Part shown: positions 8,713 through 59,716 of the stretch, piece after piece
How the letters are laid out: every line of letters begins with the position of its first letter
Numbering within the stretch: the first letter of the stretch is position 1
Assembly (NCBI GenBank): GCA_000165345.1
Contig: CM000436.1
Location: 224,001-288,000 of the forward strand
Direction: 5' to 3'
DNA: 64,000 nt
Program-made: the position numbers and the translations under genes
Notes under the pieces: model-generated
What the model was told of the DNA's origin: nothing
The model's database searches: none
The model's input: the letters and a program-made list of their open reading frames with translations, nothing else

Positions 8713-9306
8713 TACGAAATTCACCCTAGCCAATGAGCAATGATTATACTATATTTGAATTGTTTTCAAATAGATTAGTTCCAATTAAATTTTTTTTCCT
8801 TCAATTTTTCTGTTTCCAATATTTGCATGTGCATGTAAACTATTTGGCGCCAGCGCCAGTTAACACCGGTATTGAAATTTAATTATTAACGTAATGAAAA
8901 ATAAAAAGAGGAGCCAAAAAATAATTTAATTTGAATTAAAGAAAAAGCAAAAAAAAAAATTTTGATTAAGTGGGGAAAAATAAGCCACTTAAAATTACTT
9001 TACTTCGAGATAATTGTGAGAAGATTTCTTACTAGAGTTTGAGGTGGAGAGTTGTAACAGAAAGGATTCAAAGGAAAGGACCATTCAATTGCGTAATTCA
9101 ATAAAGGGGAGGTAGTCAGATCCTCTTTGGATTTGTAAATAATTGGAAAATAGGTGGAAACAAGTGATTACAGAACTTTTTAAGAGTAAATTCTGTGTGG
9201 AGAGAGATAGAATATAGTTTTCATAAATAAGTATATTTATACTCTGTTAAAAAGATATTAAATAGTAGAACTTGGATATTCAAAGGCGGATGCAGAACAG
9301 ACAAAG

Positions 9307-10482
9307 ATGAGTGGGGAAGATGAACATAAGAATACTTTAGCAACTTACGCTCAAAAAGTTAAAGAGCATAGGGAACTGGAAGTTAGCTTGAAAAAGAAGA
9401 GAATGGAGATTAGGGAGCTAAGCAAAGTATATGATAAGACAGAGGATGATTTGAAGGCATTGCAGAGTGTGGGCCAGATAATAGGCGAAGTATTGAGACA
9501 TTTGGATGATGAAAAGTGTATAGTAAAGGCTTCAACAGGACCTAGATATGTTGTAGGATGTAGATCAAAGCTTGATAAAAGCAAATTAACATCTGGAACT
9601 AGAGTTGCTTTAGATGCAACTACTTTGACCATAATGAGAAGACTTCCAAGAGAAGTTGATCCAATGGTTTACAATATGCTTCACGAAGATCCTGGAAGCG
9701 TAAGCTACTCTCAAGTAGGAGGATTGAATGAGCAGATTAGGGAGATAAGAGAAGTTATTGAGCTTCCTTTGACTAATCCTGAGCTATTTAAAAGAGTCGG
9801 AATCAAGACTCCTAAGGGAGTACTTTTGTATGGGCCCCCAGGAACTGGCAAAACTCTTTTGGCTAGGGCTATGGCTTCATCCATGAATTGTAACTTTATG
9901 AAGGTTGTTGCATCAGCAATAGTAGACAAATACATTGGAGAAAGTGCGAGAGTTATAAGGGAAATGTTTGGTTATGCTAAGGATCACCAACCATGCGTTA
10001 TATTTATGGATGAGATTGACGCTATAGGCGGAAAGAGATTCTCCCAAGGTACTTCTGCTGATCGTGAGATTCAGAGAACCTTGATGGAATTATTAAACCA
10101 ACTGGATGGTTTTGACGAACTTGGGGCTGTCAAAATAATTATGGCTACAAATAGACCTGATGTGTTAGATCCAGCTCTATTAAGACCTGGAAGACTTGAC
10201 AGAAAGGTTGAAATTCCTCTTCCAAATGAAACCTCAAGAGTTGAAATCCTCAAGATTCATTCCTCTAAGTTAGCTAAACAAGGAGAAATAGACTTTGATG
10301 CTATTTGCAAGCTTTGTGATGGCTTTAACGGAGCAGATATGAGAAATGTTTGTTCAGAAGCAGGAATGTTTGCAATTAGAGCTGAAAGAGACTACATTAT
10401 TGAAGAAGATTTTCTCAAAGCAGTGAGGAAATTGGCTGAAAATAAGAAGATGGAAGGGAATTTGGACTACGAAAAGGTTTAA
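9307..10482 (+). CDS. RPT4: 26S proteasome regulatory AAA-ATPase subunit Rpt4 (PSMC6/S10b)
   Basis: Near-colinear identity to human PSMC6 over the whole length: [23 protein letters not shown], Walker [53 protein letters not shown]. The length of 391 aa matches. Confidence 0.95.
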
Positions 10483-10581
10483 AAAGTAGATTAGATAACA
10501 ATTTTAGTCATTTTATTTTATTTAAATTTATTATCTAACATTTGTAACTTCGTTCGATTTCTCCAAATTTAAATCTAATAA

Positions 10582-11922
10582 CTAGCTAGACTCAGACTTC
10601 CAAATCTTCTTGCTAATTAAGAATTGAAAGTTTAAAACCAAAGTAAATATGGAGAGAGTAAGTTGGATAATTACTAAAACTGTAATCATATAAAAATTTG
10701 GGCGGGTAAAACATGCATTTTTAAAAGCCAAATAGTCTTGTGTGGGTAAACTATATAAATTTGGAGCAATTGAATCAACATTGCAAAATAACTTTAGGAG
10801 ATGATTTCCAAACCAAACAAGCGAGCAGGACCATGAGAATACAAATGTTGAGTAGAACTTTACTATTAAGGAGATTAAAATAAGCATTTTACTGCAGGAT
10901 AAGGAGGCAATGTAGCCAAGAATACCAACTAATATAGCAATTAAGCCGGAATGGGTAGCAGCGGCAAGTACGGTTCTATAGTAATAGTCTACTTGTGATT
11001 TTAGGTCTATGTTGCTTTCTGCTGAACTAGAATATCTGAATTTGAAAAAATAAAGAATTAATGAAGCAACAAGAGCAGCGTTTCCTATATATGCAATAGA
11101 GTAATCAAGAATTCCAAGTCTTTGAGATTGAATGAAGTTCCCAAGATATTGTCTTCTAACTACAAAGAGTTCCATAACAAAGTTAGTTGAGAGGTAAACT
11201 GAGTAGTAAATGATAATGAAATAAAGCTTATTTAGAGCAAAATTTGAAGTTTCAATAATGAGGGTAGATTCTCGAAGTACCATAATCTCCTCTAAATTGG
11301 ATCTACAATTTACCATAAGCTTTACCATGGCTGTAATTATGATTGGTAAAGAAATAAATGGAGATTGCCAAATAAAAACTTGATCAATAAATAACTTGGA
11401 TTTGAATATGTTAATCCATCTTACTATGATTCCTTGTTTAAATAATATAAAAAGTATCCCAAAAATACAATTAATAATTAGCTGAGTTGCCATTACTGTA
11501 GTTGTTATAATGGTCATAATATTTGCTTGTTTTACATAATTAGCAGTTTTTTCAAAACCATTTTTATTTTTTAAGAACTTTTCTAATTCATATTCCTGGT
11601 AAGTAATGTATATTCCAAGAATTATTGAAGAGATTAATAGTAAATACTCTGCAAATAGAAAAATAGCCTCTTTTTTATCAGTATACTGTCGGATAAACTC
11701 CAAACTAGAAACACTGCTTTTTGCAGAATTTAAACTTCCAATATTCAATGCAACAAGGTGGCAATCTTCTTTCAAGTTTACTTGGACAGTTGGTTCTGAG
11801 TCATTTTCTGTAAAGTTTTCAATTTTTTCATCAACCTCTTTTAATATAGGTTGTTTAACTAACACATTTTCCAACTCAATCTCACCTTCCTTAATTGATT
11901 TTTGATTTTCCAAAGAATTCAT
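10582..11922 (-). CDS. hypothetical multi-pass membrane protein (about 8-10 predicted TM helices)
   Basis: 446 aa ORF with an acidic N-terminal 90 aa followed by many hydrophobic segments. No family recognised. Confidence 0.5.
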   Translation of the reverse strand: MNSLENQKSIKEGEIELENVLVKQPILKEVDEKIENFTENDSEPTVQVNLKEDCHLVALNIGSLNSAKSSVSSLEFIRQYTDKKEAIFLFAEYLLLISSIILGIYITYQEYELEKFLKNKNGFEKTANYVKQANIMTIITTTVMATQLIINCIFGILFILFKQGIIVRWINIFKSKLFIDQVFIWQSPFISLPIIITAMVKLMVNCRSNLEEIMVLRESTLIIETSNFALNKLYFIIIYYSVYLSTNFVMELFVVRRQYLGNFIQSQRLGILDYSIAYIGNAALVASLILYFFKFRYSSSAESNIDLKSQVDYYYRTVLAAATHSGLIAILVGILGYIASLSCSKMLILISLIVKFYSTFVFSWSCSLVWFGNHLLKLFCNVDSIAPNLYSLPTQDYLAFKNACFTRPNFYMITVLVIIQLTLSIFTLVLNFQFLISKKIWKSESS

Positions 11923-57914: not shown

Positions 57915-58061
57915 AGATAATTTTGGATACTTGTTATTGAAAAAAATATGTAAATTTTAAAGGGATAAATAAAAGAAAATTGTTATTATAAATGATTTAA
58001 AATAAAGTCTATTTACTTATTTATTGATCTATCTCTCCAAGCAGATTTTCCTTTAATCATT

Positions 58062-58860
58062 TTAACAACATCTCCCAGAACTCCTAGTTTCATCATCTTT
58101 ACTGGATGAAGTAAGTTGTGCTCTAGATGGAGCCTGAACTCCAGAAGATGTCATTGTACTTGGATCAATAGTTCCATCTTCAATCTTACTTAGAATAAGT
58201 CTTGTTACTTTCACAAAGACTTCTTCTACTCCTTCACCAGTTAATGCACTTGTTTCTAGAAATAGTATATCATTTTCCTGAGCACATCTACTTGCTTCTA
58301 GAAATGTAACTTGTCTTTTATCTTTAAGATCTAATTTATTTCCAACCCCAATAATGGATATATCCACTCTGGCTAATGTTCTTGCATCTGCAAGCCAATT
58401 GACTAGATGGTTATATGATTCTCTGTTTGTTATATCATAAACAATAAGTGCTCCAGCAGCTCCTCTATAATAAGATCTTGTTACCGAACGGTATCTTTCT
58501 TGTCCTGCAGTATCCCAAATTTGGAGTTTAATTCTTTTACCTCCTGCAGTAATAATCTTTGATCCAAATTCAACTCCAATTGTATGTGATGATCCTTTCT
58601 TGACTAATATTTGAATTCAATTTGGGGGAAAAAATAAAAGTTAATAGTTTCTTATAATGAATGAAAATACAATAGATACCTCTTAATGATTCAAATTCTC
58701 GATTAGAAGAAGAATAGAGGGAAAGAGGTTCTTTTTAGAAGACAAACTTACATTTATTTTCTATAAATTGGTGAAGTAAACATGATTTTCCTGCTCCAGC
58801 ATCTCCAATTACTATAAACTTAAATAAGTAATCATATTGTTCTTTTTCTTGTCTTGACAT
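58062..58860 (-). CDS. RAB4: Rab4-like small GTPase (Rab2/4/14 subfamily) with 2 exons: 58752-58860 and 58062-58603.
   Basis: Exon 1 encodes [36 protein letters not shown], matching Rab4[34 protein letters not shown] minus-strand GTAAGT donor at 58751 and an attag acceptor at 58604 join in frame to [16 protein letters not shown]...[30 protein letters not shown]...[32 protein letters not shown]...RCC. This is near-identical to Rab4 [34 protein letters not shown]. Confidence 0.85.
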
Positions 58861-59716
58861 TTTCCTTCTTTTTTTTTTTTAAATAGTAATCAAAATGTAT
58901 CAAAATTCAAGCCAAGCTCCACTTCATATATATTATTAATTAAATGGTGAAAGAAAAATCCAAATATCAAGTTTGAAAGAAATTATTAATTAATTTGATA
59001 AATGACTTTTCAGATTATCAATTTTAACTTCACACTAAGATAAAAAAAATTAATTTGTGGCAAATTTCGGAATTAAAGACAAATTTCTACGCCTTTTTCA
59101 AACTTACCTAGAATATATTGAAAAAAGAATTTAAGAGAAGCCAATGCAATACTGAACTTCCTTTTTCAAAATACTTTAATTCATAAAAATCCCCACAGAT
59201 ATTCCTCTTTTTTTTAATTTCCTCTTTTTTTTTTTTTAATCTCTTTCTCCTTTCTTTACAATTTCCTTATTTAATTTTGTGTTTATTTTTTACATTTAGA
59301 CTCACAAAATCAGTTTTTGGCGCCGAGTAGCGCCAACAGATCAAAGAAATTTATTATAAAATAATTTTATGACAAGTTATGTAAGAATGGAAATAAAAAT
59401 TTTTAACAAGATTTAACAATTTCAGAAAAAATTCAGAGTTGCATATAAAAACAGTTTTGAGAAATTATATTCTATTTAACATTTTTGATCATTTTACCAT
59501 TTATTTTTGATATCTATCAACTTTATTTAAAAAAAAAAAAAAAAAGCCCCCACAAACGCACTTTAGCTGATACCGGCATTATTTCATAATTATCCACATG
59601 CATTAATTATTAATAATAATTTTCATGTGGACGCATGCATTAATTGTCAAAGTCTGCAAATAAAAAGCACCGGCATATAATTTTAGTTTGATAAATGTTT
59701 GTACGTGTGGGTAAAA

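What the first reader, a model, noticed from the sequence alone, without database searches (positions are those of the whole stretch)
8824..59681. Recurrent composite promoter module: E2F-like GGCGCC/GGCGGG + GCATGC palindrome + ACCGGTATATAA + CATGTGGAC
The same four short words recur together within about 100 bp in nearly every intergenic region. Examples are 8824-8874, 12209-12334, 17183-17201 with 17601-17626, 21276-21287, 22823-22933, 26129-26175, 32287-32368, 33152-33190, 35828-35856, 38229-38268 with 38495-38506, 45119-45175, 52960-53030, 59315-59338 with 59594-59681, and 60068-60086. In a 70% AT background, the 8-mers TGCATGCA and TTGGCGCC are each expected about once per 64 kb on both strands. 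I count 8 or more and 10 or more respectively, almost all non-coding. E2F-like and GCATGC-type (AP2-bound) motifs are established upstream elements in Cryptosporidium and Plasmodium. The conserved ACCGGTATATA(A) word, with its fixed co-occurrence and order, looks like a defined core-promoter architecture rather than independent motifs.
Basis: partly seen in the sequence, partly recalled or inferred. Interest (0 to 1): 0.6.

Follow-up and report, generated by a model that had tools for sequence, protein, structure and literature searches.

The report
Cryptosporidium promoter motifs, two separate grammars
The repeated short words are real, evolutionarily conserved promoter signals of the parasite Cryptosporidium parvum; most are already known (E2F and AP2 binding sites), they do not form one fixed four-part module, and one palindromic word (TACCGGTA) appears to be an uncatalogued element.

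Summary
The window is Cryptosporidium parvum chromosome 8, about cgd8_810 to cgd8_1050. All cited words are present and strongly enriched: TGCATGCA 8 against 0.69 expected, TTGGCGCC 15 against 0.15, MCGGTATA 7 against 0.59, CATGTGGA 7 against 1.27. They lie mainly in non-coding DNA.

In nine spacers aligned with C. ubiquitum and C. canis, 30-73% of motif instances are fully conserved, against 2-3% of background windows.

"One four-word module with fixed order" does not hold. All four words fall in one cluster of 150 bp or less only three times, and one of those is inside an ORF. Five of the 14 cited examples hold E2F sites only.

Two groups emerge:
- E2F sites, which often stand alone and sit centrally in divergent spacers.
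- TGCATG + (CA)TGTGGR + ACCGGTAT, which associate significantly with each other (P about 0.002 or lower) but not with E2F.

E2F, TGCATGCA and G-box-like motifs are already published for C. parvum. The core of "ACCGGTATATAA" is the palindrome TACCGGTA. It is the top-ranked enriched 6-mer and 7-mer in eight orthologous C. bovis spacers, which I did not align, and there it has no TATA tail. I found it in none of the four motif papers or tables I could read. It is a modest new lead, and I could not test it genome-wide.

The parts
7846..7855 (.). E2F-type palindrome TTGGCGCCAA, alone in a 135-bp tandem spacer, 63 bp upstream of the ATG at 7912
8824..8876 (+). Cluster TGCATGTGCATG, then TTTGGCGCCAGCGCCA (E2F), then ACCGGTAT. 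It lies 112 bp after the upstream stop codon and 441 bp before the ATG at 9307 (proteasome ATPase)
12209..12362 (-). Cluster upstream of the minus-strand gene 10582-11922: TTACCGCC (E2F variant), CACGTCAT, ACGGTATATAA, TGCATGCATACATGCA, ATGTGGA. The 31-nt block CCGCCAAAaCACGTCATnnACGGTATA is identical in four species
   Evidence: (alignment A2)
17184..17201 (.). Two adjacent E2F-type sites TTGGCGCC/TTGGCGGC, roughly central in the 1204-bp divergent spacer. Fully conserved in C. ubiquitum and C. canis
17591..17626 (+). ACGGTAT, TGCATGCA, then ATACCGGTATATATA, 235 bp upstream of the DNA polymerase alpha subunit B ATG. A TACCGGTA site lies at 245-269 bp in C. ubiquitum and 265 bp in C. bovis
21277..21286 (.). 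E2F palindrome TTGGCGCCAA, alone and central in the divergent TFIIB/cobW spacer (162 and 143 bp to the two ATGs). Conserved in C. ubiquitum and C. canis
22819..22979 (+). Full cluster upstream of Utp6 (ATG 23061): ATTACGTG, CATGCAnTCATGTGGAC, TATACCGG, GGCGCCAA, ACCGGTATATAA, CACGTCAT. The ACCGG..GGCGCC..ACCGGTA arrangement is kept as far as C. bovis
   Evidence: (alignment A1)
25932..25941 (.). E2F palindrome TTGGCGCCAA inside the last 42 nt of the upstream ORF, 475 bp before the ATG at 26416
26131..26174 (.). Two E2F-type sites (CCGCCA followed by CACGTAAT; GGCGCCAA) with no TGCATG or CGGTAT word, 248 bp before the Vps18 ATG
32287..32366 (-). Cluster upstream of UDP-glucose dehydrogenase (minus strand, ATG 31860): ATGTGGAC, CATGCA, TTACGTG, palindrome ATACCGGTAT(ATAA), TGCATGTGGAC. 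No E2F site. TCCACAT, TACCGGTAT and CACGTAA are conserved in three species
33153..33190 (.). E2F-type group TTACCGCC / GGCGGG / CCGCC, central in the divergent spacer (299 and 339 bp to the ATGs)
35830..35870 (.). E2F-type group TGGCGC / TTTGGCGCCA / TTTGGCGGTAA, followed by the conserved ACACGGTACTCG. Central in the divergent spacer (174 and 159 bp)
38176..38278 (+). ATTACGTG, ATACCGT, then TTGCATGCATCCATGTGGA-N7-GCCGGTATATAATTTTTAGATCA. The last roughly 50-nt block is almost invariant in C. ubiquitum and C. canis. It lies 102 bp after the upstream stop codon and 435 bp before the ATG at 38691
38494..38503 (.). Separate E2F palindrome TTGGCGCCAA, 230 bp downstream of the previous cluster and 194 bp before the ATG. 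Conserved in three species
45123..45172 (+). TGCATGTGGGG, TGCATG, TTCCCGCC (E2F-type) and TGCATGTGGAG, 60-108 bp upstream of the EF-hand gene ATG (45231). No CGGTAT word
52975..53005 (+). Run of TGCATGCA/TGCATG copies only. The orthologous C. ubiquitum spacer has TGCATGTGGA plus TGCATGCATGCA
55628..55635 (+). Single GGCGGTAA (E2F variant), 316 bp before the glycyl-tRNA synthetase ATG
59317..59336 (.). E2F pair TTGGCGCC/GCGCCAA inside a 70-bp block conserved in C. ubiquitum, 458 bp upstream of the minus-strand Rab GTPase ATG (58860)
   Evidence: (alignment A4)
59570..59680 (+). Cluster ATACCGGCAT, TCCACATGCA, CATGTGGACGCATGCA, CACCGGCATATAAT. No E2F site. The blocks are conserved in C. ubiquitum
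60072..60135 (+). TTTTGGCGGC (E2F-type) plus ATGTGGA inside a roughly 110-bp highly conserved block
6221..6325 (.). TTACCGCC, TGCATGCA and CCCGCC, 344-440 bp before the ATG at 6664.
63324..63347 (+). GCATGCA plus TTGGCGCC.
40373..40405 (+). Intragenic pair TGCATGCA + TTTGGCGGG (+ CCCGCC), 1.7 kb inside the 2105-aa ORF. It is the only such pair in the gene, and it sits at the same place in C. ubiquitum and C. canis while the flanking coding sequence differs
48723..48817 (+). Intragenic cluster inside ORF 47336-51247 holding all the words: ATGTGGA, ATTACGTG, TGCATGCA, GGCGGG, ATACCGGTAT, CATGTGGA. It is kept in C. ubiquitum, where the ORF is also open
3196..3260 (+). Intragenic cluster TGGCGCC, GCATGC, TGGCGCGGCGGG, CATGCGGAC inside the ApiAP2 gene (ORF 1256-5284)

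Best explanation
The window is a gene-dense stretch of Cryptosporidium parvum chromosome 8. The recurring words are binding sites for sequence-specific transcription factors in its short promoters. They form two largely independent groups, not one module.

Group 1 is E2F/DP sites: TTGGCGCCAA, TTTGGCGGG and the variant TTACCGCC. They often occur alone or in pairs and sit centrally in divergent spacers, where they probably drive both neighbouring genes.

Group 2 is a loose cluster of ApiAP2-type TGCATG(CA), G-box-like (CA)TGTGGR, the palindrome (A)TACCGGTA(T) and often CACGTMAT. In tandem gene pairs it lies 100-170 bp past the upstream stop codon and 60-450 bp before the downstream ATG.

'CATGTGGAC' is most likely a hybrid or variant of the published AP2_1 and G-box families. 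'ACCGGTATATAA' is a palindromic site for an unidentified, probably dimeric, factor. Its TA-rich tail in C. parvum is secondary.

Shown here: enrichment, non-coding bias, pairwise association and purifying selection across species. Inferred: which proteins bind, and that the two groups serve different life-cycle stages (E2F in sporozoite and asexual stages, group 2 elsewhere).
For: - Identity of the window: ten ORF products match C. parvum chromosome 8 proteins exactly. Gene order is conserved in C. hominis, C. tyzzeri, C. meleagridis, C. ubiquitum, C. canis, C. bovis and C. andersoni.
- Enrichment. A de novo k-mer scan of the non-coding DNA ranks GGCGCCAA, GCATGCA, ACCGGTAT, GGCGGTAA and CATGTGGA at the top.
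- Association by permutation: CGGTAT loci have a TGCATG within 100 bp in 7 of 8 cases (1.09 expected, P<0.0002) and an ATGTGGR in 5 of 8 (P=0.002). TGCATG has an ATGTGGR nearby in 7 of 12 (P=0.0002). E2F against each of the others gives P=0.04-0.2. At the cluster level, CGGTAT against E2F has odds ratio 0.12 (P=0.02).
- Conservation in nine spacers aligned with C. ubiquitum and C. canis: fully conserved instances are E2F 11/15, CGGTAT 5/10, ATGTGGR 5/9 and TGCATG 3/10. Background 6-mer and 7-mer windows are fully conserved in 3.3% and 2.3% of cases. Footprints are visible.
- TACCGGTA as the core: in eight C. bovis spacers orthologous to those of the window, which I did not align, CCGGTA (7 against 0.58) and ACCGGTA (6 against 0.20) are the top-ranked enriched 6-mer and 7-mer. 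With all bovis spacers pooled they rank third and second. The bovis sites read TACCGGTAA or TACCGGTAC. The Utp6 promoter keeps ACCGG..GGCGCC..ACCGGTA, and the PolB promoter keeps TACCGGTA about 235-270 bp from the ATG. In C. ubiquitum ACCGGTAT occurs 7 times against 0.08 expected.
- TTACCGCC is an E2F variant: at orthologous positions it aligns with TTTCCCGCC.
- ATGTGGA aligns with TGTGGGG in C. canis and overlaps TGCATG as TGCATGTGGR four times.
- Literature: E2F, AP2_1 and G-box are published over-represented motifs, with PBM-defined ApiAP2 binders (PMC3734150, PMC4117751). [quoted passage not shown]
Against: - Everything rests on one 64-kb window and its orthologous loci. I could not make a genome-wide count.
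- No transcription start sites, expression data or binding data were available, so function and stage specificity are inferred.
- Sample sizes are small (8 CGGTAT loci, 12 TGCATG loci, 19 E2F loci).
- E2F and group 2 words do coexist in four clusters with conserved spacing (12209, 22895-22929, 8844-8872, 48723-48817), so the two groups are not exclusive.
- C. andersoni shows none of TGCATGCA, TTGGCGCC or intergenic CCGGTA in 21 kb. The vocabulary may therefore be limited to the intestinal clade, or the sample there (3.2 kb of spacer) is too small.
- In spacer 38051-38690 the TATATAATTT tail is conserved in three species. A TATA-like role at some promoters is not excluded.
Confidence: 0.72

Rival explanations
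1. One reading: the four words form one composite core-promoter module with fixed co-occurrence and order, used by nearly every gene.
For: - Every promoter-bearing spacer carries at least one of the words.
- Three clusters carry all four (12209-12356, 22829-22922, 48723-48811).
- In all eight CGGTAT-bearing clusters at least one TGCATG lies on the gene-distal side of the CGGTAT word.
Against: - Only 3 of 32 clusters carry all four words.
- About nine to twelve clusters hold E2F sites only.
- E2F is not associated with the other words and is negatively associated with CGGTAT at the cluster level.
- The order of the words varies.
- Distances to the ATG range from 60 to more than 450 bp.
- Li et al. 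2021 found no spacing pattern relative to start sites, and co-occurrence of E2F and AP2_1 upstream of only 17 of 190 lncRNAs (PMC7840661).
Confidence: 0.05
2. ACCGGTATATAA is a TATA box with a GC-rich upstream extension (in the manner of a TFIIB recognition element). It positions TBP/TFIIB and sets the start site about 30 bp downstream. The TGCATG and TGTGGR sites are the upstream activator sites of the same promoter.
For: - The TATA-like tail points toward the downstream gene at 7 of 9 sites and is usually the gene-proximal word of its cluster.
- TATATAA(A/T) follows CCGG at 12235, 22926, 32304(-) and 38260.
- GCCGGTATATAATTT is invariant in three species in spacer 38051-38690, and a similar CCGGYATATAATTTTAG occurs at 59670.
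Against: - Across species the conserved part is (T)ACCGGTA or ACGGTATA. Orthologous tails read TATAGG, TATAGC, CATAAAG and TAAAAT. C. bovis sites are TACCGGTAA or TACCGGTAC with no TATA.
- Several sites are perfect palindromes (ATACCGGTAT at 17612, 32307, 48786), which fits a dimeric factor better than TBP.
- The site would imply 5' UTRs of 140-450 nt.
- At 12231 and 22895 the tail points away from the gene.
- The match to the BRE consensus SSRCGCC is poor. I recalled that consensus from memory and did not test it.
Confidence: 0.15
3. The group 2 clusters act on the upstream gene, or on antisense transcription, rather than on the downstream gene. They could be a terminator or insulator bound by a Myb-type factor (in the manner of Reb1/TTF-I), or promoters of antisense lncRNAs that run back into the 3' end of the upstream gene.
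For: - In six tandem spacers the cluster starts 102-171 bp after the upstream stop codon, while its distance to the downstream ATG varies from 60 to 441 bp.
- Three clusters are intragenic.
- About 10% of C. parvum genes have antisense lncRNAs biased to the 3' end, and E2F and AP2_1 motifs lie upstream of them (PMC7840661).
- TTACCGG resembles the yeast Reb1 site TTACCCG. This is recalled from memory and is only a lead.
Against: - The spacers are short, so a cluster placed just beyond the upstream 3' UTR is expected for an ordinary promoter too.
- In the divergent spacer 16646-17849 the cluster lies 167-259 bp from the PolB ATG with no upstream 3' end nearby, and this distance is kept in C. 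ubiquitum and C. bovis.
- No transcript data were available.
Confidence: 0.08
4. The words are relics of a dispersed repeat or mobile element, or a compositional artefact of GC-rich islands in AT-rich DNA.
For: The words are GC-rich islands in a 30% GC genome, and they recur.
Against: - Dinucleotide-preserving shuffles and an order-2 Markov model do not reproduce the counts.
- No repeat family of 22 nt or longer covers any of the clusters. Only low-complexity matches were found.
- The flanks between words are unrelated between clusters, and they diverge between species while the words stay.
Confidence: 0.01

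Closest known systems
E2F/DP binding motif of C. parvum (Oberstaller 2013 motifs 3 and 4, DTTGSCGCCH and TTTGGCGGGAAV; first noted by Bankier 2003 according to PMC12246861)
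   Same: The sequence is the same (TTGGCGCC, TTTGGCGGG). It is the most abundant upstream motif, it is palindromic, and it is found in spacers and between cistrons.
   Different: Nothing essential differs. Two details are added here: the TTACCGCC/GGCGGTAA variant (6 against 0.19 expected, none of the six inside my ORF models) aligns with TTTCCCGCC at orthologous sites, and the sites sit centrally in divergent spacers.
AP2_1 motif BGCATGCAH / TGCATGCA, bound by ApiAP2 domains cgd2_3490, cgd1_3520, cgd8_3230 and cgd5_4250 (PMC3734150, PMC4117751)
   Same: The word is the same. It is enriched in non-coding DNA and often occurs in tandem copies.
   Different: Nothing essential differs. In this window it is associated with TGTGGR and ACCGGTA words rather than with E2F.
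G-box-like motif DTGTGGGG / G[T/C]GGGG, bound by cgd8_810, cgd2_2990 and cgd1_3520 (PMC3734150, PMC4117751)
   Same: It shares the core TGTGG. ATGTGGA aligns with TGTGGGG in C. canis. Co-occurrence of G-box and AP2_1 motifs in 16 of 54 expression clusters is already reported.
   Different: Here the word ends in GGA(C) rather than GGGG, and it is often fused to a TGCATG half-site (TGCATGTGGA). Whether the G-box-binding AP2 domains accept GTGGAC was not tested.
TATA box with a TFIIB recognition element in other eukaryotes (general knowledge, recalled from memory)
   Same: TATATAA is immediately preceded by a GC-rich pentamer. It is mostly gene-proximal and mostly oriented toward the gene.
   Different: The tail is not conserved between species, the core is a palindrome, and the distance to a start site is unknown.
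Myb-type recognition elements (c-Myb YAACGG; yeast Reb1 TTACCCG). Recalled from memory, a lead only
   Same: The variants CAACGGTAT and TAACGGTATA at 17590, 38229(-) and in C. ubiquitum and C. canis fit YAACGG. TTACCGG differs from the Reb1 site by one base. C. parvum has 16 Myb-domain proteins, and no binding motif is given for them in the review I read (PMC12246861).
   Different: Most sites are ACCGG rather than AACGG. No binding data exist, and the palindromic form is not typical of single Myb sites.

Membership tests
C. parvum E2F-like upstream motif family | Sequence matches DTTGSCGCCH or TTTGGCGGGAAV | tested here: met
   TTGGCGCC occurs at 11 loci. TTTGGCGGG occurs at 40383, and GGCGGG/CCCGCC at 11 sites. 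The motif definitions come from PMC3734150 Table 1.
C. parvum E2F-like upstream motif family | Over-represented in upstream or non-coding DNA | tested here: met
   15 against 0.15 expected. GGCGCCAA occurs 13 times in non-coding DNA against 2 in coding DNA.
C. parvum E2F-like upstream motif family | Bound by E2F/DP heterodimers | not testable with these tools
   No binding assay is available. The papers I read also infer binding only from motif similarity.
AP2_1 (TGCATGCA) ApiAP2 motif family | Sequence BGCATGCAH or core TGCAT, enriched in non-coding DNA | tested here: met
   TGCATGCA 8 against 0.69. GCATGCA occurs 14 times in non-coding DNA against 0.56 expected.
AP2_1 (TGCATGCA) ApiAP2 motif family | Bound by ApiAP2 domains | not testable with these tools
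   PBM data for cgd2_3490 and three other domains are published (PMC4117751). Binding was not tested for these particular sites.
G-box-like motif family (for CATGTGGAC) | Sequence DTGTGGGG or G[T/C]GGGG | tested here: inconclusive
   Only 45126 (TGTGGGGGG) fits strictly. The seven CATGTGGA sites share TGTGG but end in A(C/T/A/G). One orthologous site reads TGTGGGG in C. canis.
TATA box / core promoter element (for ACCGGTATATAA) | TATAWAW sequence conserved at orthologous promoters | tested here: not met
   It is conserved only in spacer 38051-38690. Elsewhere the tails read TATAGG, TATAGC, CATAAAG and TAAAAT, and in C. bovis TACCGGTAA or TACCGGTAC.
TATA box / core promoter element (for ACCGGTATATAA) | Fixed distance (about 25-35 bp) upstream of the transcription start site | not testable with these tools
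   No start-site data were available. Distances to the ATG are 139-441 bp.
   Only 3 of 32 clusters carry all four, the order varies, and E2F is independent of the other words.
Dispersed repeat / mobile element | Extended sequence similarity between copies beyond the short words | tested here: not met
   No repeat family of 22 nt or longer covers the clusters.

The most novel reading that the evidence does not exclude
The palindrome TACCGGTA (with its variant ACGGTAT), and perhaps CACGTMAT, are genuine genus-level cis-elements that the C. parvum motif catalogues I could read do not list.

Together with TGCATG and TGTGGR they would define a second promoter grammar, distinct from the E2F grammar that dominates sporozoite open chromatin. 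An unidentified dimeric factor would read this grammar. Candidates are one of the 16 Myb-domain proteins, for which the review I read gives no binding motif, or an ApiAP2 domain without a known motif.

This grammar could mark genes switched on outside the sporozoite and early asexual programme, including internal or antisense promoters inside long genes.
Probability: 0.4. Interest if true: 0.55.

Novelty: new member of a known kind. Interest (0 to 1): 0.33.

Why it matters
Gene regulation in Cryptosporidium is poorly understood. A 2025 review (PMC12246861) lists only six upstream motif families, and it gives no DNA-binding motif for the 16 Myb-domain proteins.

Most of this finding re-discovers the published E2F, AP2_1 and G-box-like motifs, so that part is ordinary. 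Three things are of some value:

- Cross-species footprinting shows these sites are under selection at base-pair resolution across three to five species.
- E2F sites and the TGCATG/TGTGGR/ACCGGTA sites behave as two separable groups. This fits the report that sporozoite open chromatin carries E2F but no AP2 motifs.
- There is a concrete candidate new element, TACCGGTA. It is conserved from C. parvum to C. bovis and gives a testable probe for finding its binding protein.

If the element holds genome-wide, it would add a motif and possibly a regulator to a small known repertoire. It would not change the overall picture.

Tried and rejected
- Hidden non-coding RNA genes behind the clusters (for example snRNA-type promoters). 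Rfam at gathering thresholds and ARAGORN found nothing in the window.
- Dispersed repeat. The repeat finder gave only low-complexity families.
- TTGAATAGAG as a further shared motif. It was seen in two conserved blocks but is not enriched, 11 against 11.75 expected.
- C. andersoni as a deep outgroup. It has no TGCATGCA or TTGGCGCC and no intergenic CCGGTA in 21 kb, and only 3.2 kb of that is spacer, so it is uninformative rather than negative.
- Literature search for a CCGG-containing Cryptosporidium motif, or an ApiAP2 that binds ACCGGT. The main texts of PMC3734150, PMC4117751 and PMC1779779 contain no CCGG-containing string, and Table 3 of PMC12246861 lists no such motif. The stored part of the PMC3734150 supplement has none of the three words searched (CCGGTA, ACCGGT, TACCGG). 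The two papers that hold both 'ACCGGT' and 'ApiAP2' concern Plasmodium long regulatory elements and Toxoplasma merozoite expression, and I did not open them. Supplements of PMC4117751 are not held, and figures are not readable, so absence from the literature is not proven.
- Literature search for mapped start sites or a core-promoter description in C. parvum. Nothing usable was found.
- An independent genome-wide test. The collections available to me give access only to loci orthologous to this window.

Full report
**Source of the window.** The window has 30% G+C. Ten ORF translations match proteins of Cryptosporidium parvum chromosome 8 exactly, and neighbouring locus tags such as CHM_8g830, 8g990 and 8g1050 place it at about cgd8_810 to cgd8_1050. 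Public gene calls for C. parvum assemblies agree with my ORF map between 0 and 31 kb. The C. ubiquitum annotation shows that the long 'spacers' at 45-47 kb and 58-59 kb hold intron-containing genes: an EF-hand protein with its ATG at 45231, and a Rab GTPase on the minus strand with its ATG at 58860.

**Check of the observation.**
- Against dinucleotide-preserving shuffles, TGCATGCA occurs 8 times against 0.69 expected and TTGGCGCC 15 times, at 11 loci, against 0.15. MCGGTATA occurs 7 times against 0.59 and CATGTGGA 7 times against 1.27.
- The full 12-mer ACCGGTATATAA occurs only twice and CATGTGGAC three times.
- An unbiased k-mer scan of the 17.3 kb outside my gene models puts GGCGCCAA, GCATGCA(A), GGCGGTAA, ACCGGTAT, CACATGCA and CATGTGGA at the top. 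All are rarer per kilobase in coding DNA.
- So the words and their excess are real.

**Do the four words form one module?** I clustered all hits that lie within 100 bp of each other.
- Of 32 non-coding or multi-word clusters, only three hold all four word types: 12209-12356, 22829-22922 and 48723-48811. The last lies inside an ORF.
- Nine clusters hold E2F-type sites only: 7847, 17185, 21278, 26131, 35830, 38495, 55628, 59318 and 63594. Three more hold E2F plus a TGTGG word.
In three others the E2F site is 230-400 bp from the other words.
- In permutation tests that place loci at random within non-coding DNA, CGGTAT loci have a TGCATG within 100 bp in 7 of 8 cases (1.09 expected, P<0.0002) and an ATGTGGR in 5 of 8 (P=0.002). 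TGCATG has an ATGTGGR nearby in 7 of 12 cases (P=0.0002).
- E2F loci are not significantly close to any of the three (P=0.04-0.2). At the cluster level CGGTAT and E2F are negatively associated (odds ratio 0.12, P=0.02).
- The order of the words along the gene direction is not fixed.
- The pattern is therefore two groups: E2F sites, and a loose TGCATG + TGTGGR + ACCGGTA cluster.

**Positions.**
- E2F-only sites sit centrally in divergent spacers: 162 and 143 bp to the two ATGs at 21278, 174 and 159 bp at 35830-35852, 299 and 339 bp at 33156. One sits in the middle of a 135-bp tandem spacer (7847).
- This fits bidirectional promoters. Xiao et al. [quoted passage not shown]
- The group 2 clusters in tandem spacers begin 102-171 bp after the upstream stop codon and lie 60-441 bp before the downstream ATG.

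**Conservation.**
- I fetched the syntenic loci of C. meleagridis, C. ubiquitum, C. canis, C. bovis and C. andersoni.
- In nine spacers aligned among C. parvum, C. ubiquitum and C. canis, 36% of columns are invariant. Only 3.3% of 6-mer windows and 2.3% of 7-mer windows are fully conserved.
- Motif instances defined in C. parvum alone are fully conserved in 11 of 15 cases for E2F, 5 of 10 for CGGTAT, 5 of 9 for ATGTGGR and 3 of 10 for TGCATG.
- The alignments show classic footprints:
  - CATGCAyTCATGTGGACAA and ATGTATACCGGAG upstream of Utp6.
  - A 31-nt block CCGCCAAAaCACGTCATnnACGGTATA that is identical in four species.
  - TTGCATGCATnnATGTGGA-N7-GCCGGTATATAATTTtTAGATCA, with a separate TGGCGCCAA, upstream of the 2105-aa gene.
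  - Blocks around 59.3-60.1 kb.
- The words are under purifying selection, which argues for function.

**What 'ACCGGTATATAA' is.**
- Across species the constant part is (T)ACCGGTA(T), or the variant ACGGTATA. The orthologous tails read TATAGG, TATAGC, CATAAAG and TAAAAT.
- Several C. parvum sites are perfect palindromes: ATACCGGTAT at 17612, 32307 and 48786.
- I did not align the C. bovis spacers, so a de novo scan there does not depend on alignment to C. parvum. In the eight orthologous spacers it ranks CCGGTA (7 against 0.58) and ACCGGTA (6 against 0.20) first, ahead of GCATGCA and GCGCCA. With all bovis spacers pooled they rank third and second.
- The C. bovis sites read TACCGGTAA or TACCGGTAC, with no TATA.
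- The Utp6 promoter keeps the arrangement ACCGG(TA)..GGCGCC..ACCGGTA. The PolB promoter keeps a TACCGGTA 235-270 bp from the ATG in C. parvum, C. ubiquitum and C. bovis.
- In C. ubiquitum, ACCGGTAT (7 against 0.08) ranks just after the E2F and AP2_1 words.
- I conclude that the element is a palindromic factor-binding site, not primarily a TATA box.
- A TATA-like role is not excluded where the tail is conserved (38255-38270). At 7 of 9 sites the tail points toward the gene.

**What 'CATGTGGAC' is.** It shares TGTGG with the published G-box-like motif DTGTGGGG and CATG with the AP2_1 family. It is fused to TGCATG as TGCATGTGGR four times, and it aligns with TGTGGGG at one orthologous C. canis site. 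It is most simply a variant or hybrid of known ApiAP2 sites. The published PBM data include one domain (cgd1_3520) that binds both TGCAT and the G-box (PMC4117751).

**What the E2F variant is.** GGCGGTAA/TTACCGCC occurs 6 times against 0.19 expected, and none of the six sites lies inside my ORF models. It aligns with TTTCCCGCC in C. ubiquitum and C. canis, so it is an E2F variant.

**Intragenic clusters.** Three clusters lie inside long ORFs.
- The pair TGCATGCA + TTTGGCGGG at 40373-40405 is the only such pair in the 6.3-kb gene. It sits at the same place in C. ubiquitum and C. canis. In C. canis the E2F site has a different sequence and offset, which looks like motif turnover under selection.
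- The cluster at 48723-48817 is kept in C. ubiquitum, where the ORF is also open.
- The third cluster lies at 3196-3260 in the ApiAP2 gene.
- By inference, these are internal or antisense promoters. Li et al. 2021 report antisense lncRNAs for about 10% of genes, with E2F and AP2_1 motifs upstream of them.

**Comparison with the literature.**
- Oberstaller et al. 2013 list 25 over-represented motifs, including BGCATGCAH, DTTGSCGCCH, TTTGGCGGGAAV and DTGTGGGG, and they note co-occurrence of G-box and AP2_1.
- A 2025 review lists six motif families.
- Neither of these, nor Mullapudi 2007, nor Oberstaller 2014, contains a CCGG-bearing motif in the text I could read. I found no paper linking ACCGGT to an ApiAP2.
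- Li et al. 2021 found E2F and AP2_1 motifs mostly singly and with no spacing pattern relative to start sites.
- Xiao et al. 2025 found E2F but no AP2 motifs in sporozoite open chromatin.
- Both results agree with the two-group picture and speak against a single fixed architecture.

**Rejected alternatives.** I found no Rfam family or tRNA in the window, no dispersed repeat that covers the clusters, and no compositional artefact.

**Limits.**
- All the evidence comes from one 64-kb window and its orthologues.
- I had no start-site, expression or binding data.
- Numbers of loci are small.
- C. andersoni shows none of the words in 3.2 kb of spacer, so the phylogenetic reach beyond C. bovis is unknown.

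**Verdict.**
- Most of the finding is already known. The conserved palindrome TACCGGTA (and CACGTMAT), and its specific association with TGCATG and TGTGGR sites, is a modest new lead.

Noticed in passing
window 5798, 12221, 22819, 22972, 26135, 36086, 38176, 43586, 48739, 55674, 62372: CACGTMAT (CACGTAAT/CACGTCAT) occurs 11 times against 0.78 expected and lies within or next to five of the motif clusters. This ACGT-core, bZIP-like word is absent from the published 25-motif table. It is partly conserved: the 12221 site is identical in four species, and ACACGTAA is enriched in C. canis spacers.
   Followed up: partly
window 1256-5284 (+): This ORF carries an AP2 domain (PF00847 in the public gene calls). 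By locus-tag order it is cgd8_810, the ApiAP2 shown by protein-binding microarray to bind the G-box motif (PMC3734150). The gene itself contains an internal cluster of E2F and GCATGC words at 3196-3260.
   Followed up: partly
window 40373-40405 and 48723-48817: Promoter-type motif clusters lie inside long open reading frames and are conserved in position in C. ubiquitum (and in C. canis for the first). They may be internal or antisense promoters.
   Followed up: partly
window 60055-60160: A block of about 110 bp is about 95% identical between C. parvum and C. ubiquitum. It lies inside a 1.9-kb divergent spacer between the Rab gene (ATG 58860, minus strand) and the gene at 60843. It shares GGGAATTG(G)ATTGAATAGAG with the conserved block at 12411-12431. 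It could be an unannotated exon or RNA; Rfam found nothing.
   Followed up: partly
window 45231-46000 and 58000-58860: GTAAGTT, the 5' splice-site consensus, is enriched in my ORF-free set (14 against 3.0 expected). C. ubiquitum gene calls show intron-containing EF-hand and small-GTPase genes in what a plain ORF map shows as long spacers.
   Followed up: partly
window 47336-53000: Public gene models disagree here: 1303 aa plus 389 aa in C. parvum Iowa II, 1375 aa in newer C. parvum and C. hominis annotations, and one 1947-aa intron-containing gene in C. ubiquitum. The 90% identity protein cluster for the 389-aa product mixes several different proteins.
   Followed up: no
window 59712-59770: There is a (TA)n followed by (TAA)n microsatellite just downstream of the 59.6-kb motif cluster. 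It is not conserved in C. ubiquitum.
   Followed up: no
L018 (C. andersoni), whole 21-kb locus: TGCATGCA and TTGGCGCC are both absent, and no CCGGTA occurs in spacers, although gene order is identical. The gastric species may use a different or weaker motif vocabulary at these promoters.
   Followed up: partly
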